DNA of 64,000 nucleotides from contig OX597825.1 of the NCBI GenBank assembly GCA_951406725.2, forward strand, positions 61,008,001-61,072,000. The letters are read 5' to 3'. The stretch is from Octopus vulgaris (lineage: Eukaryota). Below, piece by piece: positions 10,946 through 59,662 of this stretch (positions are counted from its first letter, which is position 1; each line of letters opens with the position of its first letter). The notes under the pieces are model-generated. The model searched no databases. It had not been told where the DNA came from and saw only the letters and a list, made by a program, of their open reading frames with translations. The position numbers and the translations under genes are program-made.

Positions 10946-10961
10946 CATTATTATTATCATC

Positions 10962-11356
10962 GCAGGAATGGCTGTGTGGTAAGTAGCTTACTTACCAACC
11001 ACATAGTTCTGGGTTCAGTCCTACTGCATGACACCTTGGGCAAGTGTCTTCTACTATAGTCTCGGGCCAACCAAAGCCTTGTGAGTGGTTTTGGTAGACG
11101 GAAACTGAAAGAAGCCCGTCATATATATATATATATATGTTTGTGTGTCTGTGTTTGGCCCCTCAACATCGCTTGACAACCGATGCTGGTGTGTTTACGT
11201 CCTCGTAACTTAGCAGTTCGGTAAGAGGGACCGATTGAATAAGTACTAGGCTTACAAAGAATAAGTCCTGGGATAGATTTGCTCGACTAAAGGCGGTGCT
11301 CCAGCATGGCCGCAGTCAAATTACTGAAACAAATAAAAGGATAAAAGAGTAAAAGA
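10962..11356 (+). mobile_element. tRNA-derived SINE with CCTTGGGCAAGTG block and internal (TA)n(TG)n (family A)
   Basis: A box TGGCTGTGTGG, B box GGTTCAGTCC; highly similar copies at 15227, 23424, 47711 and 48295. Confidence 0.9.
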
Positions 11357-11548: not shown

Positions 11549-12090
11549 CTTATTATTATTATTGTTCGTCTATCGAGACGTGTGATGTTGTCACTCTGTA
11601 AGTTGTGCTGTTCATATTGTTACACATTGTTTGACCTTGTACATTTGTCCTCGTTACTTTGTTAACCTAACCAGGACTCTGAGGAGCTGATTAGGTCTTC
11701 TCCATCCGCAGCCTGTAGGGGCTATTTTAGTGTTTGTTTGGGCTAAGACTACCCTTATTTTTTTTTCTTTTGCTAAAAGGAAAATATGGCAAACGAGAAT
11801 TGTCCGCCTTCTGAAAGGAACAACCGGCCATCCAGAAAAGAGAACAGCCAAGTCGTAAACGATAATGACGGCTGTAACGGAAGCAGCAGCAACAACAACT
11901 ATAGCATTCGTGAGGTCTATGAAAGCAATTTTCCCTTGCTTTACCATCCTCTTAACCAACCCAGGAACAAAAGAAAAAAATAATGACAAAATGCAACAAC
12001 ATAAGCGACAACATTGCCACCCCCACCGCCATTGCTGGTGGCAGCAGTAGGTCCACAACCACTACCACCAACACCAACACCAACAACAGT

Positions 12091-12653
12091 AGCGGCACAA
12101 TGGCCCAGTGGTTAGGGCAGTGGTCTCGCGGTCGCAGGATCGTGGTTTCGATTCCCAGACCGGGTATTGTGTGTGTTTATTGAACACAAACACCTAAGCT
12201 CCACGAAGCTCCGGCGAGGGGTAGTAGTGAACCCTGCTGTACTCTTTCACCACAACTTTCTCTCACTCTTTCTTCCTACTTCTGTCACAAAGCAGAGGAA
12301 CCATGGTGTAACCCATTATGGTGTGGTAAAACTTTCAGACCCCAATCTAGATTGCGAATCCTCTGTACCCCAGGATGGTTCAGCTCTCCACCCGTTAAAA
12401 GCCACCGTTTACGGAATGAGGATAACAATGTAGCTTTTGCGCCCTTGTAACCGCCAGTTTATCGCGTGTCGTGGGTGGATCGTCAAGCTGTCACACGCAT
12501 TCTTAATACTTTAGAGTAGGCTCGAATTAGAGATTATTCTTTGTGGCTTATGGCGTGAGTCCTGATTGGAAGAAGGAGAAGAAGAAGAAGAAGAAGAAGA
12601 AGAAGAAGAAGAAGAAGAAGAAGAAGAAGAAGAAGAAGAAGAAGAAGAAGAAG
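12091..12653 (+). mobile_element. tRNA(Arg)-like SINE with (GAA)n tail (family B)
   Basis: A box TGGCCCAGTGG, TCG-containing loop, B box GTTTCGATTCC; near-identical body at 29613-30109 and 53642-54082. Confidence 0.88.
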
Positions 12654-12770
12654 ACGACGACAACAGCATCAATATTCCTAATGAAAAAGGCAACAACGAA
12701 AGCGTGGCAGGCAATAACAGTCGAAACCAGTTCGACTTTGCGATAGCGACCAGAGAAGTAAATGAAGACG

Positions 12771-13283
12771 TTAGATGCCAAGAACCCTCCTAAGTATCCT
12801 TGCTCTCCCTAATAACACAGTTTTCTGCAGCTGTACTAAACTGGGTTTTATGCCTATTTCCTCTATCCATCTGTTCAGATCTTTAGGGATATTCTCCAAT
12901 GCACCTATAAATACCGAAATACGTTTTACCCGCACTTCCCATAGTCTCTGTAATTCAAAAACTAGGTCCTGGTACTTTGCTATTTTTTCTATATCTCTCA
13001 TATTAATTTTTCATCATTTGGGACTATAAATTCAGTTATCTGGCACTTTCTATTCTCTTTACCTACTACTATCAAATCGGGCCTTCTAGTTTCTACTAAT
13101 CTGTCAGTTTGAATGTCAAAGTCAAACAATAACTTCTATTTCTTACTTTCTAGTAATTTACTAAGTCCATGTTCATACCGTTTATCAGTATGTTCAAATC
13201 CGAGCTTTCTACATAGCTCCCAGTGGAATACTCTCCCTAGATTGTCATATTTTTTCCTGTATTCTTTCTGTGCCAGCATGCTA
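12771..13283 (-). pseudogene. R4/Dong-clade retrotransposon 3' fragment (endonuclease region)
   Basis: ORF 12771..13001 EKIAKYQDLVFELQRLW...QLQKTVLLGRARILRRVLGI* resembles the C-terminus of the 42174 ORF; related copy at 59983-60385. Confidence 0.85.
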
Positions 13284-13323
13284 CTTTTACTTTATTCTTA
13301 TTCTTATTCTTATTCTTATTATT

Positions 13324-13407
13324 GAATGTGAGAGCAACGGACATAAAAGCGACACTTTGGTAAAATATACACAGCCCAGTTTACCTATCATGACTTCCTC
13401 TCTGACT
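13324..13407 (-). mobile_element. 3'-end fragment of the (TAA)n-associated non-coding element (family C)
   Basis: GAATGTGAGAGC...AAAGCGACACTTTGGTAAAATATACACAGCCCAGTTTACCTATCATGACT aligns with 44374-44460. Confidence 0.75.
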
Positions 13408-14134
13408 TTCTCTCTCTTTATGTCTATTTCTAGAACAAACTAACAACGATCAAATCTGGAGAGAAATATATCCTTATGGTACCTCACTTTTAATCCTTCA
13501 GAAGTTAGAGGTTCAAGGAAAGAAGAAAACTATGTAAGTACGTACGTGTGTGTATGTATATGTATTTATGTGTGTGTGCGTGCGTCTATACGTATGTCTA
13601 CATGTGTATGTGTATATACATGTGTCTGTCTGTGTATGTCTCTGTGTCTGTGTATGCATCATACACAACACAACATGACTCAAAATGGCTGATATAAATC
13701 TATGTATTAAAAAGAGTAGCTGTGAAAAAATACATATAAAGGTAAACATATTCCTTCAATGCTCTTGATGTGTTGATTGGAAAGACTCCTTTTGCAGTTT
13801 ACTGATTGTTCCTCAGAGGATAACTTAATTCTCTTCACCAAGCTATAGAACAGAATATTCAACTATACTAGTCATAAATTTAGCCATAAATTTAATAAAT
13901 TGCTAGATTTACATATTTGTGCATTTGACTGCTGATTATTAATTTTACGATGTACTTTATGTTTAACTCAGCATGAGACAGAATGACTTATATAAATTTA
14001 GATATTAGAAAGCCTACCTGTGAAAGGAAAATATAAGAATGTAAACATTTTTCTCTATTGTTTTGTATTCTTAACCAAAATATTTCATTTCACATTGCTT
14101 CAGTAATTGGCTAACGTTCTGTTCAGGAGAAATA

Positions 14135-14232: not shown

Positions 14233-15226
14233 ATAATACAGTATTAGAGATAAGATACAAATAAACAAATAAGATGAAAGGATATCATTAAAAACTGAAC
14301 AATTAATGTTTTTAATTAGAGATCATTATTGATAGCAGCATTATCACAACCTGTGGCAATCATTGAATTTATGAGCGAGATGTGTATTTTAAATTTAATG
14401 TATATCTTAAATTGATGTATAATGTGAATATAATGATAAGTTGGTTAATGGGCCACAGGTTTAGGATATAAAAGATATATATCAAATGTATCAGAGAAAG
14501 GGAAACGAATGTTTATAGATAAGAAAGGAAGACTCTAAATCTAATGATTATTTTTATTATCAAGATTACCACCGTTATCATCATCAAGTGAAACAATTAG
14601 ACGATTAGATCAGGTGCGATTTAAATTAAATGAAAGATAGGTTGATGATTTGATAATACTTAACAGATTAAAATTAGCTGGAAACACCATAATTATCCAG
14701 TGGATAATTATTGATCCATTAGATCTGGAAGAACGCCAGTGAAATTTTAATTTAGGGAAAAAGAAGTGTTTCAAAAACTATATTATGTAAATTGAATTAG
14801 GGCTGATTTTTTCCCTAATTAGTAATATAAAACAAATAAAAAAAATTAAAAGTATTTAAGGAATTAAAACTTTATAAGAGCAAGAAATTGTGATCTGAAT
14901 TTAAACTTTTAATATTTTAAAAAAACATATCACATAGTTTTAAACAGAGAAAAAATATTGCTAACCAAAAATTTTAATTACAATTAAATTTTCTAGAATG
15001 AAAAATATAACTTGACTGAGAATTAGCCATTAAGCTAATCGAGACATTTTTAGTAATATTTGTAAATTTTGGCACAGGGCCAGTAGTTTTGAAGGTAATG
15101 CAAAGTTAATTATAGAGATCCCAGTATTTGACTGGTACTTATTTCACTGCCCCTAAAAGGATGAAAGGCTAATATGTGACCTTGGTAGAATTTGAATTCA
15201 GAACAAAGAAGCTAGGTACATATGTA

Positions 15227-15636
15227 GGCGCAGGAGTGGCTGTGTGGTAAGTAGCTTGCTAACCAACCACATGGTTCCAGGTTCAGTCCCACTGCGTAGC
15301 ACCTTGGGCAAGTGTCTTCTGCTATAGCCCCGGGCCGACCAATGCCTTGTGAATGGATTTGGTAGACGGAAACTGAAAGAAGCCTGTCGTATATATGTAT
15401 ATATATATATATGTATGTGTGTGTTTGTGTGTCTGTGTTTGTCCCCCTAGCATTGTTTGACACTGATGCTGGTGTGTTTACGTCCCCGTCACTTAGCGGT
15501 TCGGCAAAATAGACCGATAGAATAAGTACTGGGCTTACAAAGAATAAGTCCTGGGGTCGATTTGCTCGACTAAAGGCGGTGCTCCAGCATGGCCGCAGTC
15601 AAATGACTGAAACAAGTAAAAGAGAAAGAAAGAGAG
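15227..15636 (+). mobile_element. Family A SINE, full length
   Basis: Same structure as the 10962 copy; adjacent diverged Nin-like SINE on the minus strand at ~15065-15205. Confidence 0.92.
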
Positions 15637-15939
15637 TATCAGCGTACCGACCATTAAGTATCTCCTAACTGACTGTAACTCAGCCCTTAATTCTTTCGTT
15701 GTTCTTCTATAAGCGAAAATGATCTTTCCAGAATAGAAACCGGTCTTTTAACCAATATACCAACCAGCCTACACGTTTTGCTTGAGTTTATAGCGATGTT
15801 TATGAGTAACCTTAACCTTCAGACTTATGATAATTTCTTCCTTCCACATCACTTAATTGTCACAATTAATAGTCGATCTCTACAAGCTAGAGAGAACGCA
15901 TGGCGAATGCACGGGACTATTTATTTGACGTTAATCCAG

Positions 15940-22253: not shown

Positions 22254-22569
22254 TCTCGGTTATATGGATGTGTGTGTGAGTGCGTGTATGTGTGTGTGTG
22301 CGTGTATGTTTGTCTACATTTGCGCTTTACGGAATCAGTACAAGTGGTATTGTTTCTGCCATTTCTATCAACAAATCGTCAAGTCGCCAGCTCACTTCGC
22401 GTCTTCAAAAATGTAAAATAAGACATTCCTTACTTGAAAAACAAGTTAGAGTTAGCGACAGGAAGTGTATCCGGCTGTAAAGCAATGCCTCAGAAATATA
22501 TTCATTTAACCCTTTGCGAGGATGCTATAAGGAACGCACAACGGAAATGCAGAAAATTCCTCAAATATT

Positions 22570-23108
<539 letters not shown>

Positions 23109-23423
23109 AATATGCCTCAAATATTAAAAATAAAAGAAACTTTGGACACGATGAGGGCGACAATGATGACGACGACGATGATGATGATGATGACAACTAT
23201 GATAATCATGATGTCCTTTAACCCCATGTCACTCCTGATTAAGCTGATTTATGGTTAAAGATGTTCAAACCATTGCTATACCTTCCTTTTCATCCGGCAT
23301 TGTAAACAGTGGACTGCATTATGAAGAAAATTGGTTCCTGAGACGGTACGCCATGGGTTTTGAATCTTCCTTTTTGTCTTCGCAGAATACTGGGGATTAG
23401 GGCAACTAAGAAAATTATTTGGT

Positions 23424-23815
23424 ACTCTCTTTTACTCCTTACCCTTTTACTTGTTTCAGTCATTTGACTGCGGTCATGCTGGAGCACCGCCTTTAGTCGA
23501 GCAAATCAACCCCAGGACTTATTCTTTGTAAGCCTAGTACTTATTCTGTCGGTCTGTTTTGCTAAACCGCTGCGTTACAGGGATGTAAACACACCAGCAT
23601 CGGTTGTCAAGCGATGTTGGGGAGACAAACAGACACAAACACACACATACACACATATATATACATATACATATATACGATGGGCTTCTTTCAGTTTCCG
23701 TCTACCAAATACACTCACAAGGCTTTGGTCGGCCTGAGGCTATATTAGAAGACACTTGCCCAAGGTGCCACGCAGTGGGACTGAACGCAGAACCATGTGG
23801 TTAGTAAGCAAGCTA
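23424..23815 (-). mobile_element. Family A SINE
   Basis: Reverse-complement match to 15227-15636. Confidence 0.9.
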
Positions 23816-23949
23816 ATTTTTTTTGTCTAGCACTGCGTCTGAGCTGATCAAGTACTTAGTAAGTAAAAAGAATGGTCCACCATCATTTTCGACGATGACC
23901 ATTCTGTTGGTCTATCAACTGAACTACATGTTTATGTAGTTAGTATGAA

Positions 23950-29210: not shown

Positions 29211-29612
29211 GAAATCTGAACTCAAAACGTTGACATACGAAATGCTGCTAAGCGTTTCACCCGGGTTCCTAACGATTCCGCCAACTCACCACGTTAAGAA
29301 TATTTCATTCCCACGAAGAAGTATACGTTCTAGTGACGGATTCCTGTACTTAATACAATATTAAATACAAATATTTGGCACGAGGCTAACATTTTTCGAG
29401 GAAGGGCATTAGTCGATTACATAGAACCCAATATTGATTGGCACTTTATTTATCGATCCCGAAAATTTCAAAGATGATATCAACTTCGGTGGAACATCAA
29501 CTCAGAGCGTAAAGAGTCGGAAGAAATTTCGGTAATTATTATGTCCGGTGCGCTAATGATTCTATCCTTTTGGTGCATATATAACAACAACACAAACAAC
29601 AACAACAACAGT

Positions 29613-30109
29613 GGAGGCGCAATGGCTCAGGGGTTAGGGCAGCGGACTCGCTGTCGTAAGAGCACGGTTTCAATTCCCAGACCGGGCATTGTGAGTGTTT
29701 ATTGAACAAAAACACCTAAGCTCCACGATGCTCCGGTGGCAGGAGGAAGGGTGAACCCGCTGTACTCTTTCACCACAACTTTCTCTCACTCTTTCTTCCT
29801 ACTTCTGCCACAAAGCAGAGGAACCATGGTGTAACCCACTATGGTGTGGTAAACTTTCAGACCCTAGTCTAGATTGCGAATCCTCTGTACCCCAGGATGG
29901 TTCAGCTCTCCACTCGTTAAAAGCCACCGTTTACGGAATGAGGATAACAGCGTAGCTTTCGCGCCCATGCAACCGTCAGTTTATTGCACGTGGTGGGTGG
30001 ATCTTCAAGTTGCCACACTCATTCTTAGTAGCTTAGAGTAGGCTCGAATTAGAGATTATTCTTTGTGGCTAATGGCGTGAGTCCTGATTGGAAGAAGAAG
30101 AAAAAGAAG
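29613..30109 (+). mobile_element. Family B SINE, full length, with 17-bp TSD
   Basis: TSD ACAACAACAACAACAGT (29596-29612) / ACAACAGCAACAACAGT (30110-30126). Confidence 0.9.
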
Positions 30110-30180
30110 ACAACAGCAACAACAGTACTAATGATAATTATGATTTCAAATTTTGGTACATAGCCAGCACTTTCGAGAAG

Positions 30181-30441
30181 GGGTTTTGTTCACCATCCTT
30201 AAACAAACCTTGTTCAGGGACTGTCTGCGCGAGATGGGCTTCTCGACCTGAAGGAAATTCTGAGCTCCAGCTGCAAGCTCATGCGCTGTTCATCTTGATA
30301 TGAGATCAGCATGTTGTGCACATATGGTTGTGATGCATGTGTCTGGTGTACCCTTATCAGGCGGGTAGTCAGGATGGGTATATTGGGCTTCGTATATTTG
30401 TACCCAGATGTCACTTTGGTGGCACACGCTATCTCTCTCGC
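30181..30441 (+). mobile_element. Family C element, 5'-truncated, followed by (AAT)n
   Basis: Aligns with the 3' half of 30505-31051. Confidence 0.85.
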
Positions 30442-30488
<47 letters not shown>

Positions 30489-30504
30489 TAAAAAATAAAC
30501 GAAT

Positions 30505-31051
30505 GCCCTGATGCAGTACCAGGTACTGGGTCTCATGGCTTCTGATCTTAACTGATTGGTAGTGTTATGTAATGTTTTATCTTGGTATACAAGATGAGCT
30601 ACAACAAATATTCTGCTCAGTACTTCAGATTTTCTTGTCACTTACTTGACTTTAACAAGAAGAGATGTCCCTTGCTGGATGATATATGTGCTGCTCTGAT
30701 CATGAGCAGAAGCAGTGAAGGAGCATTATAGCCATGTGTTGAGAGGAATTCTTTGGGGCTTGAATAATTCACCTTTGGAAACGTGGGCATTTCGTTCAAC
30801 ATCCTTAAACAAGCCTTATTCAGAAACCTTTAGAGCAGCATGGGCTACTCGACCTGAAGAAAATTCTAACTGAGCCCCACCTGCAAGATCATGCTCTGTT
30901 TATCTTGATACGAGATCACCATGTCGTGTGCATATAGTTGTGATACATGTGCCTGGTGTACTGTTACCAGACTGGTAGTCATGATGGGTATACTGGGTTT
31001 CGCATATTTTACCCTAGTGTTACTTTGATGGTATGTATTGCTCTCTCACTC
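30505..31051 (+). mobile_element. Family C element, apparently full length (~547 bp), between AAT-type repeats
   Basis: Starts GCCCTGATGCAGTACCAGG, ends CTCTCTCACTC+AATAAC; reverse-complement match to 44374-44921. Confidence 0.88.
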
Positions 31052-41080: not shown

Positions 41081-41122
41081 ACAAACGTTCACACCAGTTC
41101 TTCTAGTATTATTATTGCTGTT

Positions 41123-41329
41123 AAGGTAGAGAGCTGGCAGAATCGTTAGTAAGCCGGGTAAAATGCTTAGAGGCATTTGTTTGTCTTTACGTTCTCAGTT
41201 CAAATTCCAACGAGGACAAGTTTGCCTTTCATCCTTTCGGGGTCGATAAAATACGTATTAATTGAACACTGGAGTGGATGTAATCAGCCTATCCCCAAAA
41301 TAGCTGGCCTTCTACCAAAACCTGAAATC

Positions 41330-41997: not shown

Positions 41998-43794
41998 CTT
42001 TTTTTTTTTTCTTCTTTCAAATTTTCTTCCATTTCTTGCCGAGTGTCTTCCCGACTCCTAGGGCAAAGAAACTCATAGTGTATATTGGTAGGCCATTAAA
42101 CCAAACTCAGAAGTTCGTTCATTTTTTTTTTTTTTTTTAAAGTTAGATTAAAATACATGAGCAGCAACAGTTCTCACATCGACAATGCTCTTCTCAATAC
42201 GTGTGATGTACCAGTTAAGACAATCTTTTGCACTTCTTGCAGGGATGGTAAGCCAGGGATCATTCTCATATAATTTTCGGTTCCCTTCTTGATCATTCCT
42301 AGTGCTCCTACGATCACTGGTATTGTAACCGCCTTGAGATGCCACATTTTCTCAATTTCAATGAGTAGGTCTTTATATTTTCTGAGCTTGTCAAACTCTT
42401 TCGCAGAGATATTATGATCACAGGGGATGCTCATGTCGATCAATAAGCAAACTTTATTGTTTTGGTCTTTCACAACAATATCTGGTTTATTGGCCTTGAT
42501 GGTTCGGTCTGTATGTACTGGAAAGTCCCACAGAATGGTTACATTTTCTCCTTCAGTTACAGCCTCAGGGTGGTGATTATACCACTTGTCGGCAGTTTTG
42601 ATATTGTAATGCCGACTTATTAGCCAGTGGAGATATTGGCCAACTCTGTCATGTCTTAATTTATACTCCACTGGTGCTAAGACTTTACATCCAGAGATTA
42701 GGTGGTCCACTGTTTCAATCATGTCGTTGCAGAATCGGCATTTTGGGTCTGCTCCATTTTTCATCACATTGGCCTGGTAGTTCCGGGTTAATAGGCTTTG
42801 GTCTTGAGCAGCCAGGATGAAACCTTCGCTCTCTGCTTTTAGCCCTGAGCTCCGCAGCCACTGATGGGTTTGCTTCTGGTCAACATCAGCTTGTTTGCTG
42901 CGGGTCACATATTTGCCGTGCAGAGGTTTCTCCTCCCACCTATCAGCCAATTGCTCGTGCGCTTTTTTCATTGCCATCATTTTCACCTTCTTTGCAACAA
43001 TAGTTGCCGTACTTCCCTCGGGTTGTTCAGTTTGGGTATCCTGCACGAGATCAATAGCAAATTTTTTGCTTTCCTTGATGATAGAATGAAGCTTCTTTCG
43101 TCTCTCGTGATTTTCCACGAGCTTTAGCATCCAGTCATTCGATATTTCGAGATATTTGGCCAGTCCAATTGTGGTTGTTTTGTAAGCTAGTTCAAATTGG
43201 ATCAGGCCTCGACCTCCTTGGGCTCTGGGAAGGTAAAGGCGATCTACGTCTGCCTTTGGGTGGTGCATCCTATTACAACTCAGCAGCTTGCGTATTTTTC
43301 TATCTATATTCTTTACTTCACTCATATTCCAGTTCAACACATTGTAGCTATAATTAACAACTGGAACTGCTAAGGAATTTATAGCTAACACCTTGTTACG
43401 TGCATTTAGTTCAGATTTCAGGACTGCACGAACTCTCCTATAACATTCCTTCCTGATTTTCTCTTTCATGCTTGCATGCTGAATACCAGAGCCTTCATTT
43501 ATCCCTAAATATTTGTATGTCTGTTCTTGCTCAAGCTCTCTTATGACTGTGTCAACATCTAACACGACTGAATTTGTGGTCTTCACTTTCCCTTTCTGGA
43601 AAGTGGCCTTGGCACACTTCTCAAGTCCAAACTCCATCCCGATGTCATCGCTGAATGCTTTCACGGTGCGCAATAGGCCTTCAAGTTCATTATTGTCTTT
43701 ACCATAAAGTTTTAAGTCATCCATATAAAATAGATGGCTCATTTTTTTATTGGCAATTTTATACCCATACCCTGTTCTGTTTAATTCACTTGTA
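41998..43794 (-). mobile_element. 5'-truncated R4/Dong-clade site-specific non-LTR retrotransposon in (TAA)n
   Basis: ORF plus ~175-nt 3' UTR containing CCCTAGGAGTCGGGAAGACACTCGGC and an A-rich end; (TAA)n on both sides on the element strand. Confidence 0.92.
42174..43794 (-). CDS. RT C-terminal half, CCHC zinc knuckle and restriction-like endonuclease (partial, ~540 aa, uninterrupted)
   Basis: SHLFYMDDLKLY; IGMEFGLEKCA; YKYLG; RLYLPRAQGGRGL; CRFC-ETVDHLISGC; KPDIVV...LIDMSIP...KLRKY. The tracked start at 43838 lies in the ATT repeat and is spurious. Confidence 0.93.
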
Positions 43795-43846
43795 ATTATT
43801 ATTATTATTATTATTATTATTATTGTTATTATTATCATTATTATTA

Positions 43847-44126: not shown

Positions 44127-44153
44127 TATTATTATTATTATTATTATTATTTT
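43795..44153. repeat. (ATT)n array, 5' flank of the Dong-like element
   Basis: Directly visible. Confidence 0.97.
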
Positions 44154-44316
44154 ACTTCTCAGAGCTCTCGGTCTTACTTGCTCTGTCTGATTCTGTGAGA
44201 GCGGACCGAAACATGTTGTCAGGGGTTTCACGAGGTCTCCGCAAACTATAAGCTTTCTTACCTGGTTCTTAACTTATCGTAGAAGACACTCAACACCCAA
44301 GCACCGATTTCAAAAT
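44154..44316 (-). mobile_element. Extreme 3' fragment of another probable R4/Dong family
   Basis: Minus strand ILKSVLGC* (cf. ILRRVLGI*, VLRRALSM*), then ~135 nt with hairpin potential, then (TAA)n. Confidence 0.55.
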
Positions 44317-44329
44317 GTTGTTGTTGTTA

Positions 44330-45026
<697 letters not shown>

Positions 45027-47214: not shown

Positions 47215-47710
47215 TACACACATAGACCTAGAGACAGATATACAGAAATGGACAAATGATAGTCAGTAATTGATCTACATAACATATTGCATATGCATAT
47301 ATTACGACAAGAAATGACTTTACAGTTGTTGCTAAAATGCAAATAATGCAAGTGGGTGTGTGTAATGAAGCAATACTGATACATAGCAAAGAACAAAAAC
47401 ATTTATCAGTTTGCTTGAAGCATGGTAAGTGAGTATCATCAAGCTGGAAACATTAAATATTCTGGACCTGAGTTTATAATCTGGAGTATGTATGCATGTA
47501 TGTATGTATATATGTATGTATGTATGGACAGGAGTTGGGGTGGGGGTAAATAGATGCTGAAAATTTGAAAACCATCTGAAGTCAGTCTACCTTTTATCCG
47601 TGGTAGAAGTAATAACAGATTCAATATTTCTTAAATAACAGAATTTAAACTTCAATTATGGTCCACCATACAAGACATTATTATATTACCTAAACCCAAT
47701 GTTTACTGCA

Positions 47711-48128
47711 GGCGTAGGAGTGGCTGTGTGATAAGTGGCTTGCTTACTAATCACATGGTTCCGCGTTCAGTCCCACTGCGTGGCACCTTGGGAAAGTGTC
47801 TTCTGCAATAGCCTCAGGCTGACCAAAGCCTTGTGAGTGGATTTGGTAGACGGAAACCGAAAGAAGCCCGTCGTATATATGCATATATATACATATATAT
47901 GTATGTGCGTGTATAAGTTTGTGTGTGTGTGTTTGTCCCCCCAACATCGCCTGACAACCGATGCTGGTGTGCTTACGTCCCCGTAACTTAGAGGTTCGGC
48001 AAAAGAGACTGATAGAATAAGTACTAGGCTTACAAAGAATAAGTCCTGGAGTCGATTTGCCCGACTATTGGTGGTGCCCCAGCGTGGCCACAATCAAATG
48101 ACTGCAACAAGTAAAAGAGTAAAAAGAG
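47711..48128 (+). mobile_element. Family A SINE
   Basis: Match to 15227-15636. Confidence 0.9.
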
Positions 48129-48294
48129 TATATCTTCTATCTTCTATATCTTACTCCTTTGACTTTGAGTTTGTGAACAAGCTTGAACACTACCATTTGT
48201 GTAATTGCTACTTTAAACTCACTCCCAAGACTTCTCTTCTCCAAATTTGATTCTGACAAAACACATAAAGCTGCCCTCCATTTTGCTTCTTGCT

Positions 48295-48694
48295 ACTCTC
48301 TCTCTCTCTTTTACTCTTTTACTTGTTTCAGTCATTTGACTGCGGCCATGCTGGAGCACCGCCTTTAGTCGAGCAAATCGACCCCGGGACTTATTCTTTG
48401 TAAGCCCAGTACTTATTCTATCGGTCTCTTTTGCCGAACCACTAAGTGACGGGGACGTAAACACATCAGCATCGGTTGTCAAGCAATGCTAGGGGGACAA
48501 ACACAGACGCACACACATACATACATATATATATATATACATATATACGACAGGCTTCTTTCAGTTTCCGTCTACCAAATCCACTCACAAGGCATTGGTC
48601 GGCCCGGGGCTATAGCAGAAGACACTTGCCCAAGATGCCACGCAGTGGAACTGAACCCGGAACCATGTTGCTGGTTAGCAAGCTACTTACCACA
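48295..48694 (-). mobile_element. Family A SINE, inverted relative to the 47711 copy
   Basis: Reverse-complement match to 15227-15636. Confidence 0.92.
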
Positions 48695-49078
48695 CGATGT
48701 ATATTTGCAATGTACCTCAGCACAAATTCACATTCAAATCTAAAATGTATGCATAATGTACCACGAAACTATTTCTGGTTATGTTAGCCACAATGTAGCA
48801 AATGTTAGAACAGCATATGTGTACTTTGGTAATGGAACATTTCAACTAAATTGTTGTATTGGGTTCTGAAAAAAAAAATATGCTTATAAATAATATGAAG
48901 TAGAGAAATTTACCTTTTTATTGAATTTCAGGTTAACAGCAAATAAGCTTTTCCCCTCTGTTAACTACCCTCTTCCGTTTTATTTAGTATCCATAAGTAT
49001 ATGAGTGTGTTCAACTTTGTTTTTGCGTGTTGTGTGTGTAATTTACCTTTATGTGAAGTAGTTAATGTACACATATAC

Positions 49079-51737: not shown

Positions 51738-52948
51738 CACATACATGACAGAAGTAAATAGACACCCTTATAATCATTAAAATTTATTTCAATGTGAAAT
51801 TATACATTCAAATTATTTATTAATTGTTACAATATGAATATTCAAAGTTTACTAGACATGCCCTTTGCATTTTTCAATGCAAGGATCCTATAAGGCATGC
51901 TACTGTTCAGATGACATATATTCTCTTGCGGAATTTCTTGCCAAGTTTCATGCAGTAATCTCAAAAGATCTGGCTTTGAAGATGCTTTCTTGTTCTTTTA
52001 ATGAAGTGTCCTGTTCGGAGCTGTTCAACAGAATTCATATCTTGTCACTGCCTTGGCCATGGAAACTTTTTAATACCATTCTCATCCAACAAATCTTGGG
52101 TCATTTTAGCCGTGTGACAAGGAGCCCCACTTTTCATAAATAGTCTTCTTTAATCATTTCACCACTGGAGAAGATTGGAAGGAGTCCTTTTTGCAATATG
52201 GACATATATTTATCTCAGTTTATGTTTCCATCACATTCCACAAGCTCTGATCAACCATTGTTCAAAATTGCTCCCCAGACCATCACAGAATAGCTGTCAT
52301 GTTTTATTGTTGGCTGCAATCTTTCCACATCAAATTCTTGATCACAGAATCTCCAGAACCTCACTTGGCCACTGTCAGGAAATACGGCAAATCTGGACTC
52401 ATCAGAGAATATAACAGTGTCCTAAAATGCTAGTGGCCTTTCCACCATCTCACTGGCCCAATCTTCTCTCCATTTGATGTTGTTGGTCAAAGAAATGGCT
52501 TCCTTCTTGCTGCTCTGACATAGTAACCGAGTTTGTGGAGATACCTGACAGGTGTTCTGGGACTGACATCAACATGTTCTGCTATGTCAGAGGCCTTGCA
52601 AAAAGGATTATCCTCCACAATTCTCTTGGCAAAGAGAAGGATCCTGTCAGAGGGCCCTGGTTGATCTGGGCGAGGTAATATGGACTCCTTCCTCTTTCTG
52701 GTGAATTGCACAATCACACTGTTAACTGCAGAAAGCTGGATCACAAAATTTTTTTGTGATTTTAAGCAATGTCCACCTTCAGAATGACCCACAATATGGC
52801 CTCTTTGAAACTCAGACAGTTCCAAGGCCTCTTTTGTGCATGGCATGATTAAACAGCTACATATAGAAGCTGAAACATAAAAAATATAAACTTTTACAAG
52901 TTAGAACGATGTTTTATGGGTTGTCTATTTACTTTTGTCATGTCTTTG
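51738..52948 (-). mobile_element. Tc1-type DNA transposon (~1.2 kb) with both TIRs and a decayed transposase
   Basis: TA-flanked TIRs CACATACATGACAGAAGTAAATAGACA / TGTCTATTTACTTTTGTCATGTCTTTG; ORF 52487..52846 ELSEFQRGHIVG...LHKLGYYVRAARRKPFL; later broken WPRQ*QDMNSVE motif. Confidence 0.9.
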
Positions 52949-52992: not shown

Positions 52993-53640
52993 CGAGGGTG
53001 GGCTGAAAAGATCATAGGCTGACCATGATGCAATGGTCAAACTTGACCAAATGTGTTTTATTCTTCAACATAATCTCTCCTGCAGCCCATACACTTCGTC
53101 CATCGGTGTTGCAGCACTTAGATTCCCGTGGTATGGAAGCTCTCATCCTGTCCCTCAAAAAAGTCCTCAACAGCAGATATGACCTCATCATCTGTTTGAT
53201 ACTGCTTCCCAGCCAAGTGTTTTTTTCATGTTGGGGAACAGAAATGGTCAGATGGTGCCAAACCAGGAGAATATGGAGGGTATTCAACCAGTTCAAAGCC
53301 ACAGTCATGCACAGCAGCCATTGATTGCAACCACAGACTTGTCCAAGTGAATCAGAGCCCCACTTCATCTGATTAACATTTAAACGTCTGTCATCCATCA
53401 CCATGTAGTGAACATGGTCGATGTTTTCTTAGGTGGTGTCTGTAGCAGGACGTCCAGACCTTGGGGTCATCTTCAACACTCTCCCTACCCCTCTTGAATT
53501 CAGCTGCCCACTTTTGCACAGTTGTTAAAGCTGGAGCATCATCCCCTATTGTAGAAACCATGTTAGCCTGAATGCTTTTGGAGGCTAACCCCTTTTTCTG
53601 CAGATATTTGATAGCACCACGGTGCCAAAATTTATCCATA
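52993..53640 (-). mobile_element. Internally deleted mariner (Himar1/irritans-like) with one TIR
   Basis: TA|CGAGGGTGGGCTGAAAAG TIR; N-terminus MDKFWHRGAIKYLQKKG...VQKWAAEFKRGRESVEDDP; C-terminus HPPYSPGLAPSDHF. Confidence 0.85.
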
Positions 53641-53641
53641 T

Positions 53642-54082
53642 AACCCTGCTGTACTCTTTCACCATAACTTTCTCTCACTCTTTCTTCCTACTTCTGCCAC
53701 AAAGCAGAGGAACCATAGTGTAACCCACTATGGTGTGGTAAACTTTCAGACCCTAGTCTAGATTGCAAATCCTCTGTACCCCAGGATGGTTCAGCTCTCC
53801 ACCCGTTAAAAGCCACCGTTTATGGAATGAGGATAACAACGTAGCTTTCGCGCCCATGCAACTGCCAGTCTATCGCGTGTGGTGGGTGGATCTTCAAGTT
53901 GTCACACGCATTCTTAGTAGCTTAGAGAAGGCTTGAATTAGAGATTAGTCTTTGTGGCTAATGGTGTGAGTCCTGATTGGAAGAAGAAGAAGAAGAAGAA
54001 GAAGAAGAAGAAGAAGAAGAAGAAGAAGAAGAAGAAAAAGAAGAAGAAGAAGAAGAAGAAGAAGAAGAAGAAGAAGAAGAAG
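53642..54082 (+). mobile_element. Family B SINE lacking the tRNA head, with long (GAA)n tail
   Basis: Matches 12230-12653 from AACCCTGCTGTACTC onward; followed by ACAACAACAA and (ACT)n. Confidence 0.9.
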
Positions 54083-57544: not shown

Positions 57545-57980
57545 TGAATCAGGTATGTTATGAACATATATTTGTCATAAAGAAGAAGCAGGTTCCCTCT
57601 GACAAAACACGATAGCAATTAGCATATGCTTGTTGGCTCCTGCTACCCCACATTATGAATAAATATGCAGTTTATAGTATCTGATTTTAATTATGAGACA
57701 GACATAAAGATTATACTGGTGTGAAGCTACTTAATACAAGAGAAACTGACTATGAAATTGTGAATCAGGTATGTTATGAACATATATTTGTCATAAAGAA
57801 GAAGTAGGCTCCCTCTGACAAAACACAATAGCAATTAGCATATGCATGTTGGCTCCTGCTACACCACATTATGAATAAATATGCAGTTTATAGTATCTGA
57901 TTTTAATTATGAGACAGACATAAAGATTATACTGGTGTGAAGCTACTTAATACAAGAGAAACTGACTATGAAACTGTGAA
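57545..57980. repeat. Tandem duplication of a 216-bp unique unit
   Basis: 57545-57760 and 57761-57976 differ at a few positions; TGAA microhomology at the junctions. Confidence 0.95.
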
Positions 57981-58614: not shown

Positions 58615-58824
58615 AGTGGCATACTGGTAGATTTGTTAACAGTCAGAACAAAATGCTTCATGGCATGGTTTCTGGCTTTATGTTCTGAGTTCAAATTCCA
58701 CTGTTGTCGACCTTGCCTTTCATTCTTCTCAGGGTCGATAAAATAAATATCAGTCAAGAACTGAGGTCATTGTAATTGATTAGTCCCCCCCTACCTTCAG
58801 GCCCTGTGTCTAGAGCAGAAAAGT

Positions 58825-58902
<78 letters not shown>

Positions 58903-59662
58903 TTATTATTATTATTATTATTATCATTATTTTAATTTTTATTAAGATGGTGAGTTGGTAGAATTGTTTACATGTCTGACAAAATGCTACATGGCATTTA
59001 ATCTGTTTCTATGTTCTAAGTTCAAATTTTGCTGAGGTATACTATGCCATTCACCCTTTCAGGGGTCAATAAAATAAATAGCAATTGAGCACTTGGGGTC
59101 AATATAATCAACTTCCTCATCCCTCAAAATTGCTGCTGTGTGCCCAAATAAGAAAGGGACAGAATCATTAACATGTTGGACAAAATACTTTGCAGCATTT
59201 CTCTTGATTCTTCATCTACTACACTCAAAATACTACTGAGGACTTTGTCTTCCATTCATTCAGGGTCGATATTTTAAAGTCGAAGACTGGGGGTTGATGC
59301 TATAAACTAATCCTTTCCCACTAAATTTCAGGCCTTGTGCCATACATTATTTACATTATTTACATTTGATGGATATTTGTCCTCATCTTGTTTGTTGCTA
59401 AATATAGAACTTGTGCCTGTAGTTGAAAGAATTATAATTAGCATTAAGCTTTGGAGCTTTCAGAATCATCAGCACATTGGACAAAATACTTGGTAGCATT
59501 TTTCTGGCTCTTCACATTCTGAGTTCAAATTCAGCTGAGGTCATCTTTACTTTTTCATCCTTCCAAGGCTGATAAAATGACTACCTGTCAAGTACTTGGA
59601 GGTCAATGTAATCAACTAACTGCCTCCTAAAATTGCTAGCCTTGTGTGAAAATTAGAAAGAA
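58615..59662 (+). mobile_element. Head-to-tail run of four diverged Nin/Deu-domain-like SINEs
   Basis: Cores near 58700-58745, 59030-59080, 59240-59275 and 59535-59580. Confidence 0.75.

What the first reader, a model, noticed from the sequence alone, without database searches (positions are those of the whole stretch)
30181..31051. Family C: ~550-bp retroposon-like element with no tRNA head, always tied to TAA repeats
Seen: four copies (30181-30441, 30505-31051, 44374-44921, 13324-13407) share one end (...CTCTCTCACTC+AAT) and vary at the other, the pattern of target-primed reverse transcription. I see no A/B boxes or long ORF. The 5' end has hairpin potential (GCCCTGATGCAGTACCAGG). Inference: a non-autonomous partner of an RLE-type LINE, analogous to R2 SIDEs; few such partners are described for R4/Dong. 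Its 3' end does not visibly match the three R4 3' UTRs in this window, so the driver is unidentified.
Basis: partly seen in the sequence, partly recalled or inferred. Interest (0 to 1): 0.7.

Follow-up and report, generated by a model that had tools for sequence, protein, structure and literature searches.

The report
TAA-targeted non-coding retroposon without tRNA head
This is a real, very abundant 550-base non-coding repeat that sits inside TAA microsatellites and has no tRNA-type promoter; it is likely a passenger copied by an R4/Dong retrotransposon, but neither its reading direction nor its driver is proven.

Summary
The four copies are real (C2/C3 86.5% identical) and all end in AATAA(T/C)AA. 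There is no ORF, tRNA, Pol III box pair, Rfam match, terminal inverted repeat or HDV/hammerhead core. Public contig sets show a very high-copy family in five organism labels, with lineage-specific subfamilies. Its other end is fixed: (TAA)n-AAT-GCCCTG, so it is not a truncated LINE tail or an LTR. A sister family shares only a 167-nt middle block. No shared 3' tail with any R4 piece in the window was found. Best reading: a non-autonomous partner of a TAA-targeting R4/Dong LINE, working like EhSINE1 rather than like an R2 SIDE (about 50%). Dfam/Repbase could not be searched.

The parts
30505..31051 (+). C2, full-length copy (547 nt); starts AAT|GCCCTG right after the TAA array, ends CTCTCTCACTC then AATAACAAT
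   Evidence: terminus matches family-wide loose end
30181..30441 (+). C1, partial copy holding the shared end; other half missing, junction abuts a tRNA-SINE stump (likely deletion)
30442..30504 (+). (AAT)17 array between C1 and C2: flank of C1 and insertion site of C2
30136..30180 (-). 3' stump of a 220-bp tRNA-SINE at C1's cut end
   Evidence: BLAST 30136-30168; rest by eye
44374..44921 (-). C3, near-full copy (548 nt, lacks the first 6 nt), TAA arrays on both sides; close to the family majority
   Evidence: (up to 98% of words held)
44658..44824 (-). 167-nt middle block shared with a sister repeat family that has its own flanks
   Evidence: loose ends at 44658 and 44824 in all three contig runs; one 316-nt contig carries both junctions
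44835..44921 (-). predicted 5' stem-loop domain with G-U pairs (z -3.5 in C3, -2.0 in C2); not an HDV or hammerhead fold
13324..13407 (-). C4, old 84-nt piece of the shared end, followed by AAT/(TAAGAA)5
12771..13291 (-). R4b, truncated R4/Dong-type endonuclease fragment starting directly in C4's tail, same sense
41998..43795 (-). R4a, 5'-truncated R4/Dong-type LINE (open 538-aa RT end, CCHC, RLE; 3' UTR) in the same TAA array system and same sense as C3
59984..60382 (-). R4c, decayed R4/Dong-type 3' fragment with about 70-nt 3' UTR and (CTA)/(TAA) flank

Best explanation
Shown: the unit, its fixed ends, TAA on both sides, lack of ORF and Pol III head, lineage-specific amplification, a middle block shared with a sister family. 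Inferred: a Pol II or read-through transcript beginning at AAU-GCCC; recognition of its structured 3' part by an R4/Dong protein; a nick in the ATT strand of a TAA array that primes reverse transcription; joining of the 5' end through 1-3 nt of homology with the array. Each insertion keeps or extends TAA, so later C and R4 copies stack head to tail (C1-C2, C4-R4b, C3-R4a). The driver family is not identified.
For: TAA word after the shared end in 4 of 4 copies and (TAA)n before the other end in 264, 179 and 38 contigs; by contrast only 2 of 26 tRNA-SINE pieces have >=3 TTA units on both sides (flanks extrapolated for partial pieces), so this is targeting rather than tailing alone. R4a lies in the same array system in the same sense and R4b starts in C4's tail. 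Dong targets (TAA)n in most insects, molluscs and cnidarians (PMC7998251, passage); Dong-R4 has 5 recently active families in O. vulgaris (PMC13282606, Table 1). C3 folds at z -4.9 in this sense against -0.7 in the other; C2 -1.7 against 0.0. Variant shares differ between runs (44678: 92% in X10, 10% in X12, 17% in X8; 44631: 0.3%, 40%, 34%), so subfamilies amplified separately. Hint only: the fixed junction reads GGCATT on the ATT strand, the preferred nick site of the RLE of EhLINE1 (PMC1635306, passage); internal priming from such a nick would give the head-to-tail partial tandems table 5c.
Against: No same-strand likeness between C and any R4 piece here (0 of 42 tests; no coding likeness to 120 R4-type proteins). 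No HDV-like ribozyme although Dong and R4 carry one at the 5' end (PMC3774820). The folding argument failed a control: 3 of 3 tRNA-SINE copies fold better antisense, C1 and C3's 3' half show no asymmetry, and common variants keep 15 of 24 predicted pairs, no better than chance (P=0.23). Summed contig depth is by the tool's own warning no copy count, and mid-element bins swing as much as the end ratio. Neither short copy has TAA at its cut end. tRNA-SINEs here end in (ATT)n in their own sense, so a second machinery of opposite polarity exists. The table 5c joints fit both polarities.
Confidence: 0.5

Rival explanations
1. The element is read on the other strand: it starts GAGTGAG, ends in a stem-loop plus GGGCATT and a (TAT)n tail, and is mobilised by a tail-adding APE-type LINE (RTE, CR1/L2 or I/Nimb), as the tRNA-SINEs of this genome would be.
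For: Fixed end followed at once by (TAT)n, with (CAT)n variants; tRNA-SINE copies end in (ATT)n in sense; the same-strand joints of table 5c can be read as short 5'-truncated copies (98-234 nt) behind an intact 3' end with 1-3 nt microhomology.
Against: The would-be 5' flank is TTA-type in 4 of 4 copies, needing targeting that tRNA-SINEs rarely show; depth is lower, not higher, at that end; both partial copies lack that end; no folding signal on this strand; no head of any known kind.
Confidence: 0.22
2. It is a non-autonomous unit or solo pseudo-LTR of a Penelope-like element (Naiad or Neptune type), which favour microsatellites.
For: Naiads occur in Octopus, prefer microsatellites, lack canonical hammerheads, and related Chlamys elements have head-to-tail non-autonomous forms (PMC8557442, passages); C forms head-to-tail pairs.
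Against: Naiad targets are (TA)n, not (TAA)n; the joints seen are same-strand (usual terminus restored in 4 of 5 informative joints, 0 of 5 if inverted) and are not the [3' part][full] or inverted pattern; C1 and C2 are only 82% alike, so not one tandem event; no hammerhead core. No PLE ORF was available to test.
Confidence: 0.13
3. The copies are only the long 3' UTR left by 5'-truncated insertions of an autonomous LINE.
For: Same TAA sense as R4a; RTE-2_OV and R4-1_ADi have UTRs near 600 nt (PMC9115989, PMC5786205, passages).
Against: The far end is fixed and is preceded by (TAA)n, not by LINE sequence, in the best-supported loose end of all three contig runs; no coding likeness in C or just upstream. 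Only 20 loose-end rows were shown and 2017 were not, so a rare autonomous parent is not excluded.
Confidence: 0.07
4. It is a solo LTR or a non-autonomous DNA element (MITE, Helitron).
For: The opposite strand can be read TG...CA (sequence).
Against: Flanks are TAA arrays, not 4-6 bp duplications of random sites, and no primer-binding site or internal sequence follows either end; no terminal inverted repeat; ends lack TC...CTRR (recalled Helitron rule).
Confidence: 0.03

Closest known systems
EhSINE1 of Entamoeba histolytica (partner of RLE-type EhLINE1)
   Same: 500-600 bp, no ORF, no clear tRNA head, depends on a restriction-like-endonuclease LINE (PMC2996970, PMC1635306, passages); that enzyme nicks 5'-ATT-3', best in GGCATT. 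EhLINE1's place in or near the R4 clade is recalled, not from a call.
   Different: EhSINE1 shares about 70 nt of 3' end with a known partner, makes target duplications and is not sequence-targeted; family C is locked to TAA arrays, is far more numerous, and has no identified partner.
R2 SIDEs of Drosophila (bipartite non-autonomous LINEs)
   Same: Short, non-coding, site-specific passengers of an RLE LINE (PMC3414825, abstract and Discussion).
   Different: SIDEs are an HDV-like ribozyme fused to the LINE 3' UTR, rare and confined to rDNA; C shows no such ribozyme and no match to a LINE end so far. Kojima 2018 (PMC5786205) lists only RTE, Ingi, Vingi and R2 as sources of bipartite non-coding forms, not R4.
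Dong / R4-clade LINEs
   Same: Same (TAA)n target and same sense to it; co-occur in the same arrays here.
   Different: Autonomous, about 1200-aa ORF, 5' HDV-like ribozyme shown for B. mori Dong (PMC3774820); C has neither.
Octopus tRNA-derived SINEs (OK, OR1, OR2) and Ceph-SINEs
   Same: High-copy short retroposons with microsatellite ends; modular bodies shared among families, like C's 167-nt block.
   Different: They have tRNA heads; C has none. Their sequences were seen only as citations, so no direct comparison was made; exact C motifs were absent from the searched supplements of PMC5786205 and PMC4758252.
Naiad/Chlamys Penelope-like elements and non-autonomous forms (MRC1)
   Same: Microsatellite bias, no canonical hammerhead, head-to-tail copies.
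   Different: (TA)n, (CA)n or (C)n targets; pseudo-LTR or inverted structure not seen for C.

Membership tests
EhSINE-type non-autonomous partner of an RLE LINE | Short, multicopy, no coding capacity | tested here: met
EhSINE-type non-autonomous partner of an RLE LINE | No tRNA/5S/7SL head | tested here: met
EhSINE-type non-autonomous partner of an RLE LINE | Same insertion target and sense as the partner LINE | tested here: inconclusive
   TAA both sides as for R4a, but the RNA strand of C is inferred, not shown
EhSINE-type non-autonomous partner of an RLE LINE | 3' end shared with the partner LINE | tested here: inconclusive
   0 of 14 same-strand tests of the last 120 nt against 7 window pieces; only two R4 3' UTRs were available, whereas PMC13282606's supplement lists 51 Dong-R4 families in O. 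vulgaris
R2 SIDE / bipartite non-autonomous LINE | HDV-like ribozyme at the 5' end | tested here: not met
   No Rfam hit; strict descriptor 0 hits; relaxed score 31-33 against shuffles up to 48. Descriptors were recalled and had no positive control; self-cleavage not assayed
R2 SIDE / bipartite non-autonomous LINE | 5' and 3' parts colinear with an autonomous LINE | not testable with these tools
   No genome held; no full-length R4 DNA retrievable
Classical SINE (tRNA, 5S or 7SL head) | Pol III A and B boxes in a small-RNA-derived head | tested here: not met
   No ordered A/B pair on either strand of C1-C3; a window tRNA-SINE gave both (A with 2 mismatches allowed)
Non-LTR retroposon in general | 5'-truncation series keeping the 3' end | tested here: inconclusive
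   2 partial copies keep one end but lack TAA at the cut; depth ratio 1.2-1.5 from contig sums; raw-read run held only 12 reads
Penelope-like pLTR / retrozyme | Hammerhead core | tested here: not met
   (Naiads also lack it)
Penelope-like pLTR / retrozyme | Partial tandem [3' part][full] or inverted truncated copy; link to GIY-YIG/RT ORF | tested here: inconclusive
   Shown joints are same-strand and of another geometry; 176 joints not shown; ORF link untestable
Solo LTR | TG...CA with 4-6 bp duplication of a random site; PBS/PPT next to some copies | tested here: not met
MITE | Terminal inverted repeats | tested here: not met

The most novel reading that the evidence does not exclude
Family C is a ribozyme-less, Pol III-less, microsatellite-targeted passenger of Dong-R4 LINEs that reached tens of thousands of copies in octopods, swaps a 167-nt module with a sister family, and rebuilds an endonuclease nick site at its own 5' junction so that new copies stack on old ones: the first high-copy animal SINE-like family run by the R4 clade.
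Probability: 0.3. Interest if true: 0.6.

Novelty: new variant of a known kind. Interest (0 to 1): 0.38.

Why it matters
Non-coding passengers of RLE LINEs are few (R2 SIDEs, EhSINEs), and the R4/Dong clade is absent from the published list of clades that give bipartite non-coding derivatives (PMC5786205). A 550-nt, high-copy passenger would mark out the minimal RNA an R4/Dong protein needs, show how a target-specific element is transcribed without a Pol III head or a recognisable ribozyme, and explain part of the large unclassified SINE share and TAA content of octopus genomes. It is still a selfish repeat with no sign of host function, it is probably already present as an unnamed or mislabelled consensus in repeat libraries, and its driver is not shown.

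Tried and rejected
Other copies with flanks: no genome held; pattern scans found 0 loci in viral contigs and in the first metagenome scan; the 23 loci were chance (no match beyond about 29 nt); the 2 bacterial loci were taken as chance and not examined. R4 DNA with UTRs: none. Earlier scan notes: nothing in 4 look-ups. A 14-of-16 reverse-strand match between C's 5' part and the R4c 3' UTR is treated as chance: 5 of 84 tests under P=0.05, all reverse-strand. An HDV-like register in the middle of both C2 and C3 (score 44-47) is within the shuffle range and lacks the J4/2 motif. I first read the table 5c joints as inversions (twin priming; note) and withdrew this. DNA upstream of C4 translates to PDLIVV and aligns loosely to R4b, but P is about 0.08 and the profile search gave E=0.5 elsewhere: a lead only. 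Folding as a polarity marker failed on tRNA-SINEs (stopped at the time limit with 9 of 10 background windows done). Host name: protein searches named no octopus protein; 'octopus' is recalled from the repeat repertoire. Literature: 10 searches found no description of this family or of a Dong-dependent SINE in animals; exact motifs were absent from main texts and from searched supplements. Unseen files that may bear on novelty: PMC9115989 files 5, 6, 8 and two oversized archives (file 7 gave 94 characters), PMC4758252 file 1, the Zenodo library of PMC13282606, Repbase and Dfam. Ruminski 2011 was not held.

Full report
Observation. C2 and C3 are 86.5% alike over 541 columns, C1 is 86% to C3 and 82% to C2, C4 is 74-79% to the full copies over about 85 columns. 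All 4 of 4 end at the same point and run into AATAA(T/C)AA, a word that starts at 0.3% of strand positions here. C2 and C3 have no frame over 63 codons, no tRNA, no Rfam match better than E=2.4, no ordered A/B boxes on either strand and no terminal inverted repeat. The host is likely an octopus; this is recalled from the repeat repertoire and no call names it.

Surroundings. The window holds three R4/Dong-type pieces on the minus strand: R4a with an open 538-aa frame (RT end, CCHC, PD..D endonuclease; Pfam RVT_1; relatives are single ORFs of about 1200 aa), R4b and R4c. Clade assignment rests on domain order and target; no tree was built. C3, a 160-nt unidentified piece and R4a lie head to tail in one TAA array system; R4b starts in C4's tail; C2 sits in C1's tail.

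The family beyond the window. Of 24 runs listed, 14 (9 studies, 5 organism labels) hold 86-98% of C3's sampled words. Four runs were laid on C3: three contig sets gave 73,513, 45,064 and 10,338 matching records; the raw-read run gave 12 reads and is uninformative. Summed depth above a million in the two larger contig sets, against 5-23 for most of their listed single contigs, suggests tens of thousands of copies, but the tool warns this is no copy count. Four results matter. (1) The far end is fixed: after 44921 contigs read CAGGGCATT and then (TAT)n (264, 179, 38 contigs). The unit is therefore about 554 nt, begins (TAA)n-AAT-GCCCTG, and C3 lacks 6 nt. This argues against a truncated LINE tail and against an LTR. 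Loose ends at the other terminus were not among the 20 rows shown (2017 not shown). (2) A sister family shares only 44658-44824 and has its own flanks on both sides; one 316-nt contig carries both junctions. (3) Variant shares differ strongly between runs (44678: 92%, 10%, 17%; 44752: 65%, 3%, 6%; 44631: 0.3%, 40%, 34% for X10, X12, X8), so subfamilies spread separately in different lineages. (4) Eleven of 12 joint rows shown (176 not shown) link the fixed end to internal points 98-234 nt from it with no TAA spacer. I first took them for inversions; a same-strand reading restores the usual terminus in 4 of 5 informative joints and the inverted reading in 0 of 5, so they are head-to-tail partial tandems with 1-3 nt of microhomology.

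Truncation. C1's cut end abuts the tail stump of a tRNA-SINE on the other strand at a G-run, and C4's abuts non-TAA DNA, whereas truncated R4a has TAA at its cut end. Both may be deletions. Contig depth is 1.25, 1.20 and 1.48 times higher near the shared end than near the fixed far end, mild support at best, as mid-element bins swing as much.

Polarity. Against: 3 of 3 tRNA-SINE copies fold better antisense, and C1, C3's 3' half and the shared block show no advantage; of 35 common variants (40 rows shown, 5 seen only in the raw-read run dropped, 19 not shown) 15 keep and 9 break a predicted pair, against 11.2 breaks expected (P=0.23); RNAalifold shows no covariation gain; tRNA-SINEs here end in (ATT)n in their own sense. 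What still favours targeting is that only 2 of 26 tRNA-SINE pieces have TTA runs on both sides, while C has TAA on both sides as a rule.

Driver. No same-strand likeness to R4 pieces (0 of 42 tests) and no coding likeness to 120 R4-type proteins. Only two 3' UTRs were at hand, while 51 Dong-R4 families are listed for O. vulgaris, so this is not a refutation. No HDV-like ribozyme was found by Rfam or by two recalled descriptors (no positive control), although B. mori Dong self-cleaves at its 5' junction with TAA (PMC3774820, passages). One hint: the RLE of EhLINE1 nicks 5'-ATT-3', best in GGCATT (PMC1635306, passages), and C's fixed junction reads GGCATT on the ATT strand. If the octopod enzyme is alike, old copies would attract new ones, and internal priming there would give the partial tandems seen; template jumps, or truncated copies under the opposite polarity, explain them equally.

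Mechanism. Most likely (0.5): a Pol II or read-through RNA starting at AAU-GCCC is bound by an R4/Dong protein, which nicks a TAA array and reverse-transcribes it there; arrays are kept and extended, so C and R4 copies stack. Shown are the unit, ends, flanks, abundance and subfamilies; transcription, strand, protein binding and priming are inferred. Rivals: opposite polarity with a tail-adding APE LINE (0.22), Penelope-like origin (0.13; PMC8557442, passages), LINE UTR remnant (0.07), LTR or DNA element (0.03).

Comparison with what is known. It works most like EhSINE1 (500-600 bp, no ORF, no clear tRNA head, about 70 nt shared with an RLE LINE; PMC2996970, passages), but membership needs the shared tail, which is untested genome-wide. 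It fails the R2 SIDE test on the ribozyme (PMC3414825, abstract and Discussion) and the classical SINE test on the head. Kojima 2018 names only RTE, Ingi, Vingi and R2 as sources of bipartite non-coding LINEs (PMC5786205, passages). Dong's TAA target in molluscs is from PMC7998251 (passages). The O. vulgaris annotation lists 5 recently active Dong-R4 families and 893 unclassified SINE families (PMC13282606, parts 1-2 of 3), so C may well be among them unnamed. Also seen as passages: PMC8967140, PMC9115989, PMC4758252, PMC2657916. Ohshima and Okada 1994 and Akasaki 2010 were seen only as citations. Ten paper searches and five supplement motif searches found no description of the family; Repbase, Dfam and several supplements could not be seen.

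Verdict.

Noticed in passing
44152-44312: 160-nt piece between TAA arrays with no R4 coding likeness; on the + strand it holds a degenerate hammerhead-like string (CTGA...GA...CGAAAC...GTC) as in Penelope pseudo-LTRs, but Rfam found nothing.
   Followed up: partly
44658-44824: A sister repeat family shares only this block; its flanks appear as loose ends in all three contig runs. No copy of it in the window; identity unknown.
   Followed up: partly
44792 (table 5c): One partial-tandem joint (first 139 nt followed by a new copy) recurs in three runs with different organism labels at depth 30-250, suggesting an amplified 700-nt variant.
   Followed up: partly
13400-13460 (-): DNA just upstream of C4 translates to PDLIVV and aligns loosely with the R4b endonuclease motif (P about 0.08); could be an R4 scrap fused to C4.
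   Followed up: yes
42174-43790 (-): R4a keeps an unbroken 538-aa frame and has a 98% identical relative in a public assembly (P0121): a recent insertion.
   Followed up: partly
41118-41328, 22564-23110, 58650-59660 and others: A 220-bp tRNA-SINE with (ATT)n tails (26 BLAST pieces), sometimes stacked head to tail in TTA arrays, opposite in sense to R4.
   Followed up: partly
29582-30110, 12063-12660, 53642-54071: A roughly 500-bp family with a tRNA-like head and (GAA)n tail, 89-94% alike between copies.
   Followed up: no
10961-11351, 15223-15640, 23419-23818, 47707-48134, 48290-48695: A 400-bp family with an inner TA/TG microsatellite, 81-95% alike; resembles a CORE-type SINE (recalled).
   Followed up: no
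52487-52900 (-), 53391-53687 (-): Tc1 and mariner transposase fragments (Pfam HTH_Tnp_Tc3_2, HTH_48, below or near cut-off).
   Followed up: no
57545-57980: 216-bp tandem duplication, 97% identical.
   Followed up: no
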